Shown here piece by piece: positions 28,954 through 32,670 of a stretch of 32,670 nucleotides of DNA; within the stretch, counting starts at the first letter, position 1; every line of letters starts with the position of its first letter. The stretch is taken from the UHGV virus genome UHGV-0203498; one strand, written 5' to 3'. The position numbers and the translations under genes are program-made. Origin of the DNA: a virus. Below the pieces are notes generated by a model. That model saw nothing but the letters and a program-made list of their open reading frames with translations, was not told the origin of the DNA and ran no database searches.

Positions 28954-29127
28954 ATGATTGAAGAAAAACGTTGTAGTAACTGCGGCTGTGTTAAGCCGCT
29001 ATCCCAGTTCCACAAATACACCGGAAAGACTGCGCGCAGTCCAGACGGGCATCGGGCCGAGTGCAAATCGTGCCGCAATAAGAAAGAGCGAGAACGGCAG
29101 CGCCGCTACCGCGCAGAACAAGAATAA
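28954..29127 (+). CDS. Small zinc-ribbon protein (57 aa)
   Basis: ATG at 28954 preceded by AGGAGG at 5-nt spacing; CSNCGC...CKSCRN four-Cys arrangement with a basic C-terminus. Preferred over the overlapping TTG-initiated ORF 28958..29173. Confidence 0.45.
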   Translation: MIEEKRCSNCGCVKPLSQFHKYTGKTARSPDGHRAECKSCRNKKERERQRRYRAEQE

Positions 29128-29169
29128 TCAACACGGCGGGCTTGTCCCGCCTAAAAAGGAACCGGAACA

Positions 29170-30606
29170 ATGAGTAAAAAGATGGCACGATTCCGACGCC
29201 GCGAATATCAGAAATTGATAACTGCGTTTATCCTCAAACATGAGCGCTGCAATATATGGGCGACAATGGGATCCGGCAAAACCGGCGCGACTATGTGGGC
29301 GCTGAACAAAATGTTCCAGACCGGTATCCTGTCCAGCCAGAAGGACCGCGTACTGGTGCTGGCCCCACTGCGTGTTGCATCCGGCACCTGGCCACCGGAG
29401 CAAGAAAAATGGCGATTCCCCGCACTGCTGGTCGTAGACGGCACCGGACCGGAGAAGGACCGCATTGCAGCGCTGGAGAGCGACGCTAACGTCGTTTGTG
29501 TCAATTATGATGTAGTTGAGTGGCTTGTCGAGTATTGCGGCGACGAGTGGCCCTTTACGGTCGTTGTTGCCGATGAATCCACTAAGCTGAAAGGCTACCG
29601 CAGCAAGCAGGGCAGTAAGCGCGCCCGCGCACTGGCGGCGATTGCGCATAAGCACGTCAAGCGCTGGATTAACCTTACAGGCACACCAGCCCCAAACGGA
29701 CTGAAAGATTTATGGGGGCAGACGTGGTTCGTCGACGGTGGCGAACGTCTCGGCAGCAGCTATAAGGCATTCACCGATCGCTGGTTTATTAGCAAGCCTG
29801 TTAAGCCTGGCAGCTTCACGATGCAGCACGCTCCGTTAAAGAACTCCGAGAAAGAAATACAACAACGTCTGTCAGACGTATCCCTAACCGTTGACGCGGC
29901 TGAATATTTCGGATGCGACAAGCCAATCTATACTCCGGTTATTGTGGACCTGCCGAAGAAAGCCCGCAAGATTTACGACCAGTTTGAGGACGAACTATTC
30001 GCCGAACTGGAAAGCGGAACGGTAGAGGCGGCAAACGCCGCAGCGAAAACCGTTAAGTGTCTCCAGCTTGCATCCGGTGCCGTATATAAGGTGGACGAAG
30101 ACGGCGAACGGACCGACGAGTGGGAGAAGATTCACGATGTCAAGCTGGACGCGCTGGAGAGTATCGTGGAGGAGTTGAACGGCGCGCCGTTGCTCGTTGC
30201 ATACCAGTACAAGCATGATCTGGCACGTCTCAAGAAGAAATTTCCGCACGGCGTTGCGATGGGTAAGGGTAAGCAGGGTATCAAGGATATGGAGGCGTGG
30301 AACAGGGGCGAGATTCCCATCATGTTCGCACACCCGGCATCCGCCGGTCATGGCCTTAACCTGCAGGACGGCGGTCATCATCTGGCTATCTTCTCTGACA
30401 CGTGGAACTATGAGCACTTTGCGCAGATTGTGGAGCGTATCGGGCCGGTCCGCCAGATGCAAGCCGGACACCCCAGACCGGTATTCGTCTACATTATCCA
30501 GGCGCGCGGGACACTGGACGAACTGGTGGCAGACCGCCGCGATAGTAAGCGCGATATCCAGGATGACTTGATGGAATACATGAAAGCTAAGAAGGGGCGC
30601 AAGTGA
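29170..30606 (+). CDS. SNF2-family (SF2) helicase
   Basis: Walker A ATMGSGKTG, Walker B VVVADESTKLK, motif III LTGTPAPNG, and C-terminal helicase motifs HPASAGHGLNLQ. Confidence 0.85.
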   Translation: MSKKMARFRRREYQKLITAFILKHERCNIWATMGSGKTGATMWALNKMFQTGILSSQKDRVLVLAPLRVASGTWPPEQEKWRFPALLVVDGTGPEKDRIAALESDANVVCVNYDVVEWLVEYCGDEWPFTVVVADESTKLKGYRSKQGSKRARALAAIAHKHVKRWINLTGTPAPNGLKDLWGQTWFVDGGERLGSSYKAFTDRWFISKPVKPGSFTMQHAPLKNSEKEIQQRLSDVSLTVDAAEYFGCDKPIYTPVIVDLPKKARKIYDQFEDELFAELESGTVEAANAAAKTVKCLQLASGAVYKVDEDGERTDEWEKIHDVKLDALESIVEELNGAPLLVAYQYKHDLARLKKKFPHGVAMGKGKQGIKDMEAWNRGEIPIMFAHPASAGHGLNLQDGGHHLAIFSDTWNYEHFAQIVERIGPVRQMQAGHPRPVFVYIIQARGTLDELVADRRDSKRDIQDDLMEYMKAKKGRK

Positions 30607-31313
30607 CTATTGCAAAAATGACTATCTGGTCGTTGTTTGACGGCAGCGGCTTGATGATCGAGCGTGCTGCCGAAATGGGGCACAAATGCTACTGTTTCAA
30701 CTACTCCGAAGCCGACCACGGGTCTTACCTGGACTACCGTATTTACGGTCGCGGTATCCGATACCGTAATGAGTTTATCGATCTGGACTTCGTGGATCGC
30801 GCGATTAATGGCGATTTTGGTACGCCAGACATCATCTACGCTTTCCCGCCGTGTACGGATCTGGCGGTTAGCGGCGCGCCAGCGTTCCTGCGTAAGCGTG
30901 CTAAAGACCCAGCCTTCCAGCTTAAGGCCGTGCGCACCGCGAAGATCGCCGCTTACCTGGGTGACTTCTTCGAAGTGCCATATATGATTGAGAATCCGCG
31001 CAGTGTGCTTTCCACCCAGTGGCGCAAGCCGGATCACTCGTTTGACCCGTGGGAGTATGGTGGCTATCTGCCGGAGGGTGACGTACATCCGTTGTTCCCT
31101 GAATACATCAACGCCCGTGACGCATATCCGAAGCTGACCTGCTTATGGACCGGCAACGGCTTTCGAATGCCGGAGAAAAAGCCTGTATTCGTTGAAAAAG
31201 GGTACTCGAAGCAGTATAGTCGCCTCGGTGGCAAATCTGCCCGCACCAAATTAATCCGGTCGCTCACTCCGCGCGGCTTTGCAATAGCGGTCAATGAGGA
31301 AAATTTAAAATGA
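30603..31313 (+). CDS. Compact C5-cytosine methyltransferase-like protein (236 aa)
   Basis: Motif I-like SLFDGSGLM, motif IV-like AFPPCTDLAVSG (Pro-Cys catalytic dipeptide), motif VI-like MIENPRSV. No obvious target-recognition domain. GTG start at 30603 overlaps the helicase stop. Confidence 0.55.
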   Translation: MTIAKMTIWSLFDGSGLMIERAAEMGHKCYCFNYSEADHGSYLDYRIYGRGIRYRNEFIDLDFVDRAINGDFGTPDIIYAFPPCTDLAVSGAPAFLRKRAKDPAFQLKAVRTAKIAAYLGDFFEVPYMIENPRSVLSTQWRKPDHSFDPWEYGGYLPEGDVHPLFPEYINARDAYPKLTCLWTGNGFRMPEKKPVFVEKGYSKQYSRLGGKSARTKLIRSLTPRGFAIAVNEENLK

Positions 31314-31627
31314 CGTTCGAAACCATCGATTTTTCGGTCGCAATGACTAACCAGTTATTCACCTACGACAGCAAAACCGGCGTCATTCGTCTGAAGTCCA
31401 CTGGCTGCAAGATTGGCAACCTCAACACTGCCGATGGGGGCACACGTATCGAATACAACGGCAAAACGCTGTCCGGCGCACGCGTGGCGTGGATTATCGA
31501 GACGGGCAATACAATCCCTCCAGGATACGCCGTTGTGTGCCGACAGCGCACGCCAGGACACTACGGCAACCGCATGAGCAACCTTTACCTGGTAGACGTC
31601 GCACGCGACCCTAACTTTTATGCGTAA
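31310..31627 (+). CDS. Hypothetical protein, possibly a degenerate HNH-like endonuclease
   Basis: VAWIIETGNTIPPGYAVVCRQRTPGHYGNRMSNLYLV loosely resembles the HNH_3-type pattern; start coupled to the upstream stop (ATGA). Confidence 0.35.
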   Translation: MTFETIDFSVAMTNQLFTYDSKTGVIRLKSTGCKIGNLNTADGGTRIEYNGKTLSGARVAWIIETGNTIPPGYAVVCRQRTPGHYGNRMSNLYLVDVARDPNFYA

Positions 31628-31661
31628 ATTGGTTGCATAATCATATTGGTTGCATTATATT
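31628..31661 (+). promoter_or_regulatory. ATTGGTTGCAT motif pair forming a sigma70-like promoter (TTGCAT-N17-TATATT)
   Basis: Motifs at 31628-31638 and 31645-31655; -35 at 31633-31638 and -10 at 31656-31661. Confidence 0.45.
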
Positions 31662-31663
31662 GA

Positions 31664-31688
31664 GGGTGTCCGGTTGGACGCCCTTTTT
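31664..31688 (+). terminator. Intrinsic terminator overlapping the predicted transcription start
   Basis: Stem GGGTGTCC / GGACGCCC (one G-U pair) with loop GGTT, followed by TTTTT. Confidence 0.5.
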
Positions 31689-31707
31689 AATACCTGGAGA
31701 CTATACG

Positions 31708-32172
31708 ATGAAAATTTTACAAGAAGAGAAAAACTACTGGGCAGCACAATGCCTGGAAGCCCGTGAGCAAGCCGAACGCGCGAATGCGCTGGCGGACACC
31801 TACCTTGCGAGCTACGAAGGCGAGGAGAAGGTGCGCAAGGAGCTAGAGGAACGCTTCGATCTGCTATTCGAATTGATGGGTATTATGCAGCGCACCGGGT
31901 ACACGACCACCGTTGCGCTAAACCGCATCACTGCAGAAGGCCTGCGCGAACACTGCAAGCGGGCCGAGGAGTACGTGCGTCCGAAAGGTCGCCAGTCTTC
32001 GGTCCCCCGGAAAGATCTGGTGCTGATAGCGTGGCGGCATACATCAAACGGTGGTTATAGTACTGATATGCGCCCATTGAGCGCCGAGGAGTCAAAGCGC
32101 GTCCAGCGCGTCATGAAAACCGGCAATAAAGTCCCTTTATACGCGATAGATCCAGGTCATGCAGAAGAGTGA
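31708..32172 (+). CDS. Hypothetical protein
   Basis: ATG at 31708 preceded by GGAG at 8-nt spacing; 154 aa, helical and charged. The ORF-track start at 31633 lies inside the promoter/terminator region and is unlikely. Confidence 0.5.
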   Translation: MKILQEEKNYWAAQCLEAREQAERANALADTYLASYEGEEKVRKELEERFDLLFELMGIMQRTGYTTTVALNRITAEGLREHCKRAEEYVRPKGRQSSVPRKDLVLIAWRHTSNGGYSTDMRPLSAEESKRVQRVMKTGNKVPLYAIDPGHAEE

Positions 32173-32670
32173 GCAAAAAGATAGCTGGCGCACGCCGCCA
32201 GCGTTATTTAAACCGCTGCGCCGGAAGTACCGATTCCGATATGACATGGCGGCAAGCGATGCCAATCACCTGCTACCGCGTTACTTCACGGCAGAGCACA
32301 GCGCACTTGAGGTGGACTGGTCAGAGTTGAAGGGGTGGAAGTGGTGCAATCCGCCGTATTCCGATCCGCTGCCGTGGGTAGAGTGTGCCGCGCACGGACG
32401 CCGGACGGTCATGCTTCTGAATCAGGATACGACCACGAAGTGGGCCAAACTGGCAAGGCAAACAGCCAACCTGATTATTTTGCTGGACTGGCGGATCCGG
32501 TTTATACACGCCGTCACCGGTAAGGTCGGGCCGAGTAACAACAAATGCCAGCAATTGATAATCTTTGAAGAAGTGCCGCCAAACGGCAGCGCACAAATCG
32601 AAATAATGAGCGAAGGTGAATTAAATGAATATCTTAGTCGTCGATCGAAGCCCTCGCCAAACACACCCAA
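32159..32670 (+). CDS. dam: Phage Dam-family DNA N6-adenine methyltransferase (3' end beyond the window)
   Basis: ATG at 32159 overlaps the upstream gene's end. Translation contains WRTPPALF, DMAASDANHLLPRYFT and the catalytic WCNPPYS motif, and stays open to the window end. Not in the ORF track because there is no stop in the window. Confidence 0.8.
   Translation, partial: MQKSEQKDSWRTPPALFKPLRRKYRFRYDMAASDANHLLPRYFTAEHSALEVDWSELKGWKWCNPPYSDPLPWVECAAHGRRTVMLLNQDTTTKWAKLARQTANLIILLDWRIRFIHAVTGKVGPSNNKCQQLIIFEEVPPNGSAQIEIMSEGELNEYLSRRSKPSPNTP

What the first reader, a model, noticed from the sequence alone, without database searches (positions are those of the whole stretch)
30603..31313. Minimal C5-cytosine methyltransferase-like enzyme without an apparent target-recognition domain
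The 236-aa protein carries the SAM-binding FxGxG (SLFDGSG), the catalytic Pro-Cys (FPPCTDLAVSG) and an ENV-like motif (IENPRS) in the order found in C5-MTases, but is shorter than typical enzymes and is translationally coupled to the SNF2 helicase. It could be a stand-alone methylase with an unusual specificity determinant, or a catalytic scaffold for a non-methyl modification of cytosine.
Basis: partly seen in the sequence, partly recalled or inferred. Interest (0 to 1): 0.7.

Follow-up and report, generated by a model that had tools for sequence, protein, structure and literature searches.

The report
Compact phage Dcm-like cytosine methyltransferase
This gene encodes a small DNA cytosine-C5 methyltransferase of a family already annotated in over 1,500 phage genomes, and a 53%-identical relative has been shown to make 5-methylcytosine, so the finding is real but largely ordinary.

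Summary
The 236-aa ORF at 30603-31313 (+) is real. It carries the stated motifs and overlaps the SNF2 helicase stop (GTGA).

The window is a Dhillonvirus (HK578-like) coliphage. Relatives already annotate this gene as a putative Dcm or C-5 cytosine methylase.

It belongs to a very large family of ~230-aa phage proteins: PHROG 757, 1,512 phage records and about 1,960 clusters at 50% identity. Pfam and NCBIfam miss this family.

The protein is 53% identical, end to end, to the KarlJaspers/K42 phage "Dcm". That enzyme was shown to put 5mC on retron Ec86 msDNA and to trigger that defence. The mutated residues C82, E128 and K175 correspond to C84, E130 and K177 here.

There is indeed no canonical target-recognition domain: only 52 residues follow the last core strand. 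The candidate DNA-reading parts are as conserved as the catalytic motifs.

A relative's whole genome carries no annotated hypermodification genes. Helicase adjacency is not conserved across the family.

Verdict: already known. What remains open is the enzyme's true sequence specificity and how it reads DNA.

The parts
29170..30606 (+). SNF2-family helicase gene (478 aa). Its TGA stop overlaps the methyltransferase start.
   Evidence: PF00176 SNF2-rel_dom 4.3e-11 and PHROG 62 'DNA helicase' 3.8e-155. ORF coordinates.
30592..30597 (+). Shine-Dalgarno-like AAGGGG, 5 nt upstream of the GTG start.
   Evidence: Read directly from the sequence.
30603..31313 (+). Compact Dcm-like DNA cytosine-C5 methyltransferase gene (236 aa from GTG 30603; alternative ATG at 30618).
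30630..30650 (+). Motif I, SLFDGSG (residues 10-16), the SAM-binding loop. It shares its first five residues (SLFDG) with DNMT3A SLFDGIATG.
   Evidence: In the wider family the motif is SLFDx[TS]G and Gly14 is not conserved.
30843..30875 (+). Motif IV, FPPCTDLAVSG (residues 81-91). Catalytic Cys84 is at 30852-30854.
   Evidence: Cys84 is invariant in 73/73 diverse family members. It aligns to the DNMT3A PC motif and equals C82 of the K42 Dcm.
30987..31004 (+). Motif VI, IENPRS (residues 129-134), an ENP variant of ENV. Glu130 is at 30990-30992.
   Evidence: E130 and P132 are invariant and N131 is present in 71/73. Glu130 equals E128 of the K42 Dcm.
31044..31136 (+). Family-specific 31-residue insertion (residues 148-178) between core strands beta6 and beta7. 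Canonical enzymes have a tight hairpin here.
   Evidence: AF2 secondary structure E145-147 ... E179-184. P149 and Y175 are invariant and K177 is present in 72/73. Mean top-residue frequency 0.58.
31116..31163 (+). Motif VIII-like segment RDAYPKLTCLWTGNGF (residues 172-187). Lys177 is the counterpart of K175 in the K42 Dcm, and LWTGN resembles DNMT3A FWGN.
   Evidence: The K42 authors assigned K175/K176 as substrate-binding residues by superposition on DNMT3A.
31155..31310 (+). Basic C-terminal tail (residues 185-236; 12 K/R against 4 D/E), holding the conserved LGGKS..TKxIRSxTPRGFAxAV block. It stands where the TRD and motifs IX/X would be.
   Evidence: Charge count and conservation. Helices at 203-207, 213-219 and 224-234. 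The motif assignment is unresolved.
31310..31627 (+). Downstream HNH-endonuclease-like ORF (105 aa). Its ATG overlaps the methyltransferase stop (ATGA).
   Evidence: PHROG 99 'HNH endonuclease' 2.4e-15. Coordinates.
32159..32670 (+). Second phage methyltransferase: a Dam-type N6-adenine MTase (NPPY motif). The ORF runs off the end of the window.
   Evidence: PF05869 Dam 2.2e-35. Gap-free alignment to Bas85_0034.

Best explanation
The gene encodes an active, stand-alone, SAM-dependent DNA cytosine-C5 methyltransferase. It belongs to the compact phage 'Dcm-like' family (PHROG 757), the family of the KarlJaspers/K42 Dcm.

Inferred mechanism, by analogy with the C5-MTase fold:
- The target cytosine is flipped out of the helix.
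- Cys84 (motif IV) attacks C6.
- Glu130 (ENP, motif VI) holds N3/N4.
- Lys177, in the motif VIII-like RDAYxK(K)T segment, takes the role of the canonical Arg.
- The methyl group is transferred from SAM, which is bound by the SLFDGSG loop, Asn33 and Asp60.

The enzyme has no separate target-recognition domain. DNA is probably read by the family-specific beta6-beta7 insertion (residues 148-178) and by the strongly basic C-terminal tail (185-236). This resembles the way DNMT3, the closest solved fold, manages with a minimal TRD loop.

The gene is expressed with the replication genes. It would methylate replicated phage DNA after synthesis, most likely at CCWGG or an overlapping short motif. That would mask those sites from restriction. 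The cost is that retron Ec86/Eco1 senses the same activity.

What is shown and what is inferred:
- Shown here: the fold, the conservation of the motifs and the homology.
- Shown by others, for a 53%-identical homologue: 5mC formation in vivo.
- Inferred: activity of this particular protein, its target sequence, the DNA-reading elements and its anti-restriction role.
For: - Sequence link to DNMT3A: hhalign of the family profile against the DNMT3A catalytic domain gives E 1.6e-4 to 5.5e-5 over motifs I-VI.
- Catalytic residues: Cys84, Glu130 and Pro132 are invariant and Asn131 is present in 71/73 family representatives that share only 34-56% identity with this protein.
- Homology to the tested enzyme: 53% identity over 234 aa, E 2e-85, to the KarlJaspers (Bas06) 711-bp Dcm-like gene. 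A uniform offset of 2 maps C82/E128/K175 onto C84/E130/K177.
- Experimental precedent: the K42 orthologue of that gene raised 5mC on msDNA by LC-MS. The effect was lost in the C82A/E128A/K175A/K176A mutant, and the gene is the escape locus for retron Ec86.
- DNA substrate: one family member is fused to a D12 Dam DNA methyltransferase (P0268).
- Public annotation: relatives are annotated Dcm or C-5 cytosine methylase.
- Site statistics: CCWGG is not avoided in the window (139 observed, 133 expected), while GGCC, CTAG and several 6-bp palindromes are depleted. This is only weakly consistent with CCWGG being protected.
Against: - No activity data exist for this protein or for any Dhillonvirus orthologue.
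- Pfam PF00145 and NCBIfam give no hit at E<=1, and only 5 of 73 relatives touch PF00145 weakly.
- Sequence and profile searches against PDB find no C5-MTase.
- Motif I's first Gly is not conserved in the family. The motif II acidic residue is Asn33 here, although the active K42-type clade also has Asn.
- Motifs IX and X could not be assigned.
- The CCWGG specificity of K42 Dcm was assumed from E. coli Dcm and supported only by msDNA mutants. Those experiments were run in MG1655, which to my knowledge is dcm+, so host Dcm should already methylate CCWGG.
- BASEL Dhillonvirus phages are reported as comparatively sensitive to the RM systems tested, so no protective benefit has been demonstrated.
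Confidence: 0.82

Rival explanations
1. The enzyme uses the C5-MTase chemistry to install a group other than methyl. One route would be carboxymethyl from Cx-SAM, as in phage CmoX. Another would be to make 5mC only as a precursor for further hypermodification.
Against: The 53%-identical K42 enzyme gives a product that matches a 5mC standard by LC-MS. CmoX systems typically come with phage CmoA and a ligase. The complete genome of the close relative Bas85 has no annotated CmoA, ligase of that type, TET/5mYOX or glycosyltransferase, only two methyltransferases. DNMT3A also has Arg in its GRS motif X and uses SAM (my own knowledge; sequence verified), so an Arg there is not diagnostic.
Confidence: 0.04
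2. The methyltransferase works as a physical or functional unit with the SNF2 helicase it is translationally coupled to. The helicase would remodel or unwind DNA to present cytosines to an enzyme that has no TRD, in the manner of DNMT5. This reading is compatible with the product being 5mC.
Against: In RB49 and in the autographivirus phiKDA1 the gene sits among small ORFs or next to the RNA polymerase, with no helicase nearby. The K42 enzyme is active when expressed alone from a plasmid. Overlapping start and stop codons are ordinary in tightly packed phage operons; the downstream HNH gene overlaps in the same way.
Confidence: 0.1
3. The protein is not a DNA methyltransferase in this phage. 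It could be a decayed or inactive relic, or it could act on another substrate such as tRNA (as DNMT2 does) or free nucleotides.
Against: Every family-invariant residue is intact, and the protein is 95-98% conserved across the closest Dhillonvirus genomes (139 records at 95-99% identity). The same Asn33 is present in the KarlJaspers-type sequences. The K42 orthologue methylates DNA (msDNA) in vivo. DNA C5-MTases outrank DNMT2 in both fold searches. A fusion to a Dam DNA methyltransferase points to a DNA substrate.
Confidence: 0.04

Closest known systems
Phage K42 / KarlJaspers (Bas06) 'Dcm-like C5 cytosine methyltransferase', the trigger of retron Ec86/Eco1
   Same: Same family and same architecture: 236 aa each, 53% identity end to end, E 2e-85. 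The PPC Cys, the ENP Glu and the first Lys of the motif VIII-like segment are the same. Both match DNMT3A as the nearest structure.
   Different: The phage lineage differs (Dhillonvirus against Drexlerviridae Hanrivervirus). K176 of the K42 enzyme is Leu178 here. The gene context differs: here it is directly coupled to an SNF2 helicase, whereas in KarlJaspers it follows small ORFs with a helicase two genes downstream. Activity and retron triggering are untested for this protein.
DNMT3A/DNMT3B catalytic domain (eukaryotic de novo DNA methyltransferases)
   Different: This protein is about 50 residues shorter than the 285-aa DNMT3A domain. It has 49 residues after the LWTGNGF segment, against about 116 after the corresponding FWGNLPG in DNMT3A. 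It has a 31-residue insertion between beta6 and beta7. It has no clear motif IX or X and no PWWP or ADD regulatory domains. Identity is only 13-17%. It is not a DNMT3 family member.
E. coli Dcm / M.EcoRII (CCWGG) and canonical bacterial C5-MTases such as M.HhaI (Pfam PF00145)
   Same: Same superfamily fold and the same catalytic Pro-Cys and Glu. The 'Dcm' label and the proposed CCWGG target come from this analogy.
SpCmoX, phage DNA cytosine C5-carboxymethyltransferase (PDB 8yf3)
   Different: CmoX is 333 aa in the crystal chain, has a normal TRD, uses Cx-SAM through Arg350, and travels with phage CmoA and CmoY. None of these partner genes is annotated in the relative's genome, and the homologue's product is 5mC.
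DNMT5 (fungal SNF2 ATPase fused to a C5-methyltransferase)
   Different: DNMT5 is a single 1,834-residue chain. From my own knowledge it has ATP-dependent maintenance activity. Here the two are separate proteins, the adjacency is not conserved in the family, and the homologue works alone.

Membership tests
DNA cytosine-C5 methyltransferase superfamily (fold level) | Class I Rossmann-like SAM-MTase fold with the C5-MTase-specific arrangement | tested here: met
DNA cytosine-C5 methyltransferase superfamily (fold level) | Motif IV Pro-Cys catalytic nucleophile | tested here: met
   FPPC with Cys84, invariant in 73/73 diverse members. It aligns to the DNMT3A and HhaI PC motif.
DNA cytosine-C5 methyltransferase superfamily (fold level) | Motif VI ENV glutamate | tested here: met
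   ENP variant. E130 and P132 are invariant and N131 is present in 71/73. It aligns to DNMT3A ENV.
DNA cytosine-C5 methyltransferase superfamily (fold level) | Motif I FxGxG SAM loop and motif II acidic residue | tested here: inconclusive
   This protein has F12-D-G14-S-G16. In the family, however, Gly14 is variable (Y/R/F/H) and the motif is SLFDx[TS]G. Position 33 is Asp in 69/73 members but Asn here, as in the KarlJaspers-type sequences.
DNA cytosine-C5 methyltransferase superfamily (fold level) | Motif VIII QxRxR | tested here: inconclusive
   It is replaced by RDAYxK(K)T followed by LWTGN. K177 is present in 72/73 members. The K42 authors equated K175/K176 with DNMT3A substrate-binding residues by superposition. 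My global hhalign places it on DNMT3A HRARYFWGN, but that part of the alignment is low-confidence.
DNA cytosine-C5 methyltransferase superfamily (fold level) | Variable target-recognition domain between motifs VIII and IX, followed by motifs IX and X | tested here: not met
   Only 52 residues follow the last core strand. That region is as conserved as the catalytic motifs (0.65-0.70 top-residue frequency) instead of being variable. Motifs IX and X could not be assigned by profile alignment, E 0.3.
Pfam PF00145 DNA_methylase (sequence family) | Score above the PF00145 gathering threshold | tested here: not met
   No hit at E<=1 for this protein. Only 5 of 73 relatives hit, best E 0.0039. NCBIfam gives none.
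Compact phage Dcm-like methyltransferases (PHROG 757; K42/KarlJaspers Dcm) | Full-length homology to family members | tested here: met
   PHROG 757 at E 2.2e-83 covering residues 2-234. 53% identity and E 2e-85 to the KarlJaspers Dcm-like protein. tblastn hits in 1,512 phage records.
Compact phage Dcm-like methyltransferases (PHROG 757; K42/KarlJaspers Dcm) | Single-domain size of about 210-260 aa | tested here: met
   236 aa. The family median is 234 aa and the interquartile range 214-250.
Compact phage Dcm-like methyltransferases (PHROG 757; K42/KarlJaspers Dcm) | Residues whose mutation abolished K42 Dcm activity (C82, E128, K175, K176) | tested here: met
   C84, E130 and K177 are conserved. 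K176 corresponds to Leu178, a position that varies in the family (K30/R13/T6/L5 of 73).
Compact phage Dcm-like methyltransferases (PHROG 757; K42/KarlJaspers Dcm) | Forms 5-methylcytosine in DNA | not testable with these tools
   Shown only for the K42 homologue, by LC-MS on msDNA. Needs wet-lab work for this protein.
E. coli Dcm / EcoRII-type CCWGG methyltransferases | Orthology to Dcm (PF00145 with a Dcm-type TRD) | tested here: not met
E. coli Dcm / EcoRII-type CCWGG methyltransferases | CCWGG target specificity | not testable with these tools
   It was assumed for K42 Dcm and supported by msDNA CC mutants only. The window shows no CCWGG avoidance (139 observed, 133 expected), which does not discriminate.
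CmoX-type DNA carboxymethyltransferase systems | Co-occurrence with phage CmoA (Cx-SAM synthase) and usually a CmoY-type ligase | tested here: not met
   No such genes are annotated among the 71 features of the close relative Bas85.

The most novel reading that the evidence does not exclude
This may be a distinct, DNMT3-like lineage of C5-methyltransferases with no real TRD. On that reading, the conserved beta6-beta7 insertion and the basic tail (LGGKS..TKxIRSxTPRG) read DNA. The tail is collinear with, and weakly resembles, the DNMT3A TRD loop KFSKVRTITTR. The true specificity would then not be the assumed Dcm site CCWGG. It could be a shorter or relaxed motif, or a preference for hairpin or single-stranded DNA. 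That would also explain why phage Dcm, but apparently not host Dcm in MG1655, methylates retron msDNA. The family might also be the closest viral or prokaryotic relative of the DNMT3 catalytic core.
Probability: 0.2. Interest if true: 0.55.

Novelty: already known. Interest (0 to 1): 0.27.

Why it matters
For genome annotation it matters little. The gene is a routine, already-labelled phage 'Dcm'.

Two points carry some wider weight.

1. This ~230-aa family is very common: about 3% of deposited phage genomes and about 1,960 clusters at 50% identity. Pfam and NCBIfam do not detect it. Its sequence specificity has never been measured directly, and there is no structural explanation for how a C5-MTase with almost no TRD selects its sites.

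2. The same activity is both a likely anti-restriction device and the signal sensed by retron Ec86/Eco1. The presence of this gene may therefore predict that Dhillonvirus phages are vulnerable to that defence.

A methylome and a DNA complex structure for one member would settle both points.

Tried and rejected
- Sequence searches against Pfam, NCBIfam and PDB, with the single sequence and with two family profiles, gave no C5-MTase hit. The link rests on the fold and on hhalign to DNMT3A.
- hhalign against M.HhaI, alone or as a 40-sequence profile, was not significant beyond motif IV. The HhaI homologue search returned only 71-80%-identical orthologues and was of little use.
- I tried to assign the C-terminal 52 residues to TRD, motif IX or motif X by global and local profile alignment. 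The results were non-significant (E about 0.3), so I left this unresolved. The fold-search tools give no residue-level superposition, and the afdb50 library was unavailable.
- Pfam scans of ten longer family members, looking for informative fusions, found only one: a D12 Dam fusion.
- I suspected that the neighbouring Dam-type gene was disrupted, because the ORF listing shows only short ORFs there. I rejected this: the alignment to Bas85 is gap-free, and the intact ORF simply runs off the window end.
- I tested whether helicase adjacency is a family trait and rejected it.
- The published Cell Reports version of the K42 study is not held, so I used the bioRxiv version.
- Two Dhillonvirus papers I checked contain only annotation-level mentions of the gene.
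Full report
**Observation**

The translation carries three motifs in the canonical order I, IV, VI:
- SLFDGSG, residues 10-16
- FPPCTDLAVSG, residues 81-91, with the Cys84 codon at 30852-30854
- IENPRS, residues 129-134

The GTG overlaps the TGA of the upstream 478-aa gene (GTGA). That gene is an SNF2-type helicase (PF00176 4.3e-11; PHROG 62, 3.8e-155). An AAGGGG run sits 5 nt upstream of the GTG. The methyltransferase stop overlaps the ATG of a small HNH-like gene (ATGA). An in-frame ATG lies at 30618. Compared with phage Bas85, the window carries a 15-nt insertion that repeats TGACTAT. Bas85 keeps the same GTGA overlap and yields a 231-aa protein.

**What the window is**

Bases 29000-32670 match 163 phage records, 141 of them over at least 80% of the query, at 80-90% nucleotide identity. 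Most are Escherichia phages of the Dhillonvirus (HK578-like) type, and five are named Dhillonvirus outright. In those records the orthologous gene is already labelled 'putative DNA cytosine methyltransferase', 'Dcm', 'C-5 cytosine-specific DNA methylase' or 'DNA methyltransferase'. The protein itself is 95-98% identical to the product in 139 records.

**The family**

Pfam and NCBIfam give nothing at E<=1. PHROG 757 ('DNA methyltransferase') matches at 2.2e-83 over residues 2-234.

The family is very large:
- 2,794 clusters at 90% identity in the 5.8-billion-protein collection
- 1,964 representatives at 50% identity with E<=1e-3, of which 865 are below 1e-10
- tblastn hits in 1,512 of 50,697 phage records

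Those phage records span Dhillonvirus, Drexlerviridae, Krischvirus RB49, Vequintavirus, the autographivirus phiKDA1 and many Klebsiella siphophages. Members are uniformly small, with a median of 234 aa and an interquartile range of 214-250. The protein is therefore short for a C5-MTase but normal for its family.

Only 5 of 73 diverse members touch PF00145, best E 0.0039. One long member (P0268) is fused to a D12 Dam DNA methyltransferase.

**Fold**

An AlphaFold2 model built on 38 homologues is confident (pLDDT 90.9, pTM 0.89).
- Foldseek against PDB: the top 44 hits are DNMT3A/B/C, E from 2.4e-7.
- Sequence: the family profile aligns to the DNMT3A catalytic domain at E 1.6e-4 to 5.5e-5 across motifs I-VI. 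I verified the DNMT3A sequence against 5yx2_A. The same profile does not align significantly to M.HhaI, whose sequence I verified against 10mh_A.

Several motif details are shared with DNMT3 and differ from bacterial enzymes: SLFDG, PC[N/T]DL[S/A] and [F/L]W(x)GN.

**Is there a target-recognition domain?**

The predicted core strands end at beta7 (residues 179-184). Only 52 residues follow. By comparison, about 116 residues follow the corresponding FWGNLPG segment in DNMT3A, and about 155 follow in M.HhaI (my reading of the verified sequences). No canonical TRD small domain can fit.

Two non-core elements exist:
- A 31-residue insertion (148-178) between beta6 and beta7.
- A basic tail (185-236; 12 K/R against 4 D/E).

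In 73 representatives sharing only 34-56% identity with this protein, these elements are as conserved as the catalytic motifs. Mean top-residue frequencies are:

| Segment | Residues | Mean top-residue frequency |
|---|---|---|
| Motif IV | 77-92 | 0.71 |
| beta7 | 179-190 | 0.70 |
| C-terminal block | 208-234 | 0.65 |
| beta6-beta7 insertion | 148-178 | 0.58 |
| Variable | 191-207 | 0.36 |
| Variable | 34-76 | 0.22 |

Invariant or near-invariant residues are C84, E130, N131, P132, P149, Y175, K177, T179, W182, P190, R219, S220, P223 and G225. In ordinary C5-MTases the TRD is the most variable part (my own knowledge). Here the candidate DNA-reading parts are fixed. This suggests either a common (or short) specificity across the family, or that these residues are structural.

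I could not decide whether the last helix (224-234) is the motif X helix, or whether TKxIRSxTPRG is the counterpart of the DNMT3A TRD loop KFSKVRTITTR. The alignments place it collinearly on the TRD loop, but at E about 0.3. The tools do not return residue-level superpositions.

Two caveats apply to the SAM site. Gly14 of 'FxGxG' is not conserved in the family (SLFDx[TS]G). The ribose-binding acidic residue (Asp in 69/73) is Asn33 here, as it is in the KarlJaspers-type sequences.

**Experimental precedent**

A bioRxiv study (10.1101/2023.08.16.553469), cited elsewhere as Cell Rep 2024, isolated escapers of retron Ec86 from phage K42, a KarlJaspers strain.
- All four escapers had lesions in or just upstream of a 711-bp 'dcm' gene.
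- Expressing the gene alone was toxic only when Ec86 was present.
- LC-MS showed raised 5mC on msDNA. The rise was lost in a C82A/E128A/K175A/K176A mutant.
- The authors picked those residues by superposing an AlphaFold model on DNMT3A (6F57).
- 34 of 35 Ec86-sensitive phages encoded such a Dcm.

I fetched the KarlJaspers Bas06 gene (MZ501090.1, 711 bp, annotated 'Dcm-like C5 cytosine methyltransferase'). Its 236-aa product is 53% identical to the window protein over 234 residues (E 2e-85). A uniform offset of 2 maps C82/E128/K175/K176 onto C84/E130/K177/L178. The window protein is thus a member of a family with demonstrated 5mC-forming activity.

One caveat is that the CCWGG target was taken over from E. 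coli Dcm. It was supported only by CC-to-AA, AC and CA changes in the msDNA stem, which abolished defence. The host used was MG1655, which to my knowledge is dcm+, yet msDNA showed little 5mC without the phage enzyme. The real specificity, or substrate preference, of the family is therefore not established.

**Context and the helicase coupling**

The overlap with the SNF2 helicase is real and is conserved in Bas85. Across the family the neighbourhood changes:

| Phage group | Neighbourhood |
|---|---|
| Drexlerviridae and a Klebsiella siphophage | Follows small ORFs; a helicase lies two genes downstream |
| Vequintavirus navn | Overlaps a primase/helicase gene |
| RB49 | Among small early ORFs |
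| phiKDA1 | Next to the RNA polymerase gene |

K42 Dcm also works alone. A BFVD hit shows a domain matching this model inside a 1,397-aa uncultured-phage protein named 'Helicase/UvrB, N-terminal'. This keeps a helicase partnership as a minor possibility. The simplest reading is tight operon packing within a replication module.

**Non-methyl chemistry**

CmoX shows that the fold can transfer carboxymethyl. It relies on Arg350, and it travels with phage CmoA and usually a ligase. The complete genome of the close relative Bas85 (71 features) has none of these annotated, and no TET/5mYOX or glycosyltransferase. It has only this gene and a Dam-type MTase. Together with the 5mC product of the homologue, the hypermodification idea is unsupported.

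**Site statistics**

In the window, CCWGG is not avoided: 139 observed against 133 expected under a maximal-order Markov model. GGCC (118 against 182), CTAG (10 against 39) and several 6-bp palindromes are depleted. This is compatible with CCWGG being protected but does not discriminate. BASEL phenotyping reports Dhillonvirus phages as comparatively sensitive to the RM systems tested, so a protective benefit has not been shown.

**Conclusion**

The most likely reading (about 0.8) is an active, stand-alone, SAM-dependent DNA C5-methyltransferase of the compact phage Dcm-like family. It would make 5mC on phage DNA, with Cys84 as nucleophile, Glu130 as the ENV-type glutamate and Lys177 as the motif VIII counterpart. 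DNA would be read by the conserved insertion and the basic tail instead of a TRD.

The 'non-methyl scaffold' idea and the significance given to the helicase coupling do not. The gene is already annotated in public records and a homologue has been characterised, so I rate it as already known and of low-to-moderate interest. The open residue is the family's unmeasured specificity and its DNMT3-like, nearly TRD-less way of recognising DNA.

Noticed in passing
window 32159-32670 (+), runs off the window end: A second methyltransferase gene, of the Dam type (PF05869, E 2.2e-35; NPPY motif), overlaps the end of the preceding ORF. The ORF listing misses it because it has no stop inside the window. 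Where Bas85 has its TGA stop the window reads CGA, so this copy extends further.
   Followed up: yes
window 30604-30625: There is a 15-nt insertion relative to Bas85 at the helicase/methyltransferase junction, with TGACTAT repeated at 30604-30610 and 30619-30625. It adds five N-terminal codons and creates a second possible start (ATG 30618) behind the GTG that overlaps the helicase stop.
   Followed up: yes
window 28954-29127 (+): A 57-aa ORF has two CxxC pairs. Its Bas85 counterpart is annotated 'Lar-like restriction alleviation protein'. No Pfam support (best E 0.093, DUF6510). It could be a second anti-restriction gene close to the two methyltransferases.
   Followed up: partly
whole window: GGCC (118 observed, 182 expected), CTAG (10 observed, 39 expected) and several 6-bp palindromes (GGCGCC, AAGCTT, TCCGGA, GCCGGC, CAGCTG, GGGCCC, CGGCCG) are depleted. 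CCWGG, CCGG and GCGC are not.
   Followed up: partly
window residue 33 of the protein (30699-30701); alignment A2: The position that is Asp in 69/73 family representatives (the motif II ribose-binding acid) is Asn in this protein, in all 38 close homologues, and in the Drexlerviridae proteins including the KarlJaspers type. This looks like a clade-specific change in the SAM site.
   Followed up: partly
BFVD A0A6J5SE15_1 (uncultured Caudovirales phage) and protein P0268: The compact methyltransferase domain also occurs fused to other proteins. One case is a 1,397-aa protein named 'Helicase/UvrB, N-terminal' (Foldseek E 3.9e-10, 26% identity). Another is a 563-aa protein with a C-terminal D12 Dam methyltransferase. 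Several 300-450-aa members have N-terminal extensions with no Pfam match.
   Followed up: partly
window 31633-32172 (+): This 179-aa ORF matches PHROG 10530 'DNA ligase' at 5.6e-96 but has no Pfam hit and is very small for a ligase. The label looks doubtful.
   Followed up: no
literature: bioRxiv 10.1101/2023.08.16.553469: The K42 Dcm experiments were run in MG1655, which to my knowledge is dcm+. Even so, msDNA carried little 5mC and Ec86 stayed silent without the phage enzyme. This fits poorly with a plain CCWGG specificity identical to host Dcm.
   Followed up: no
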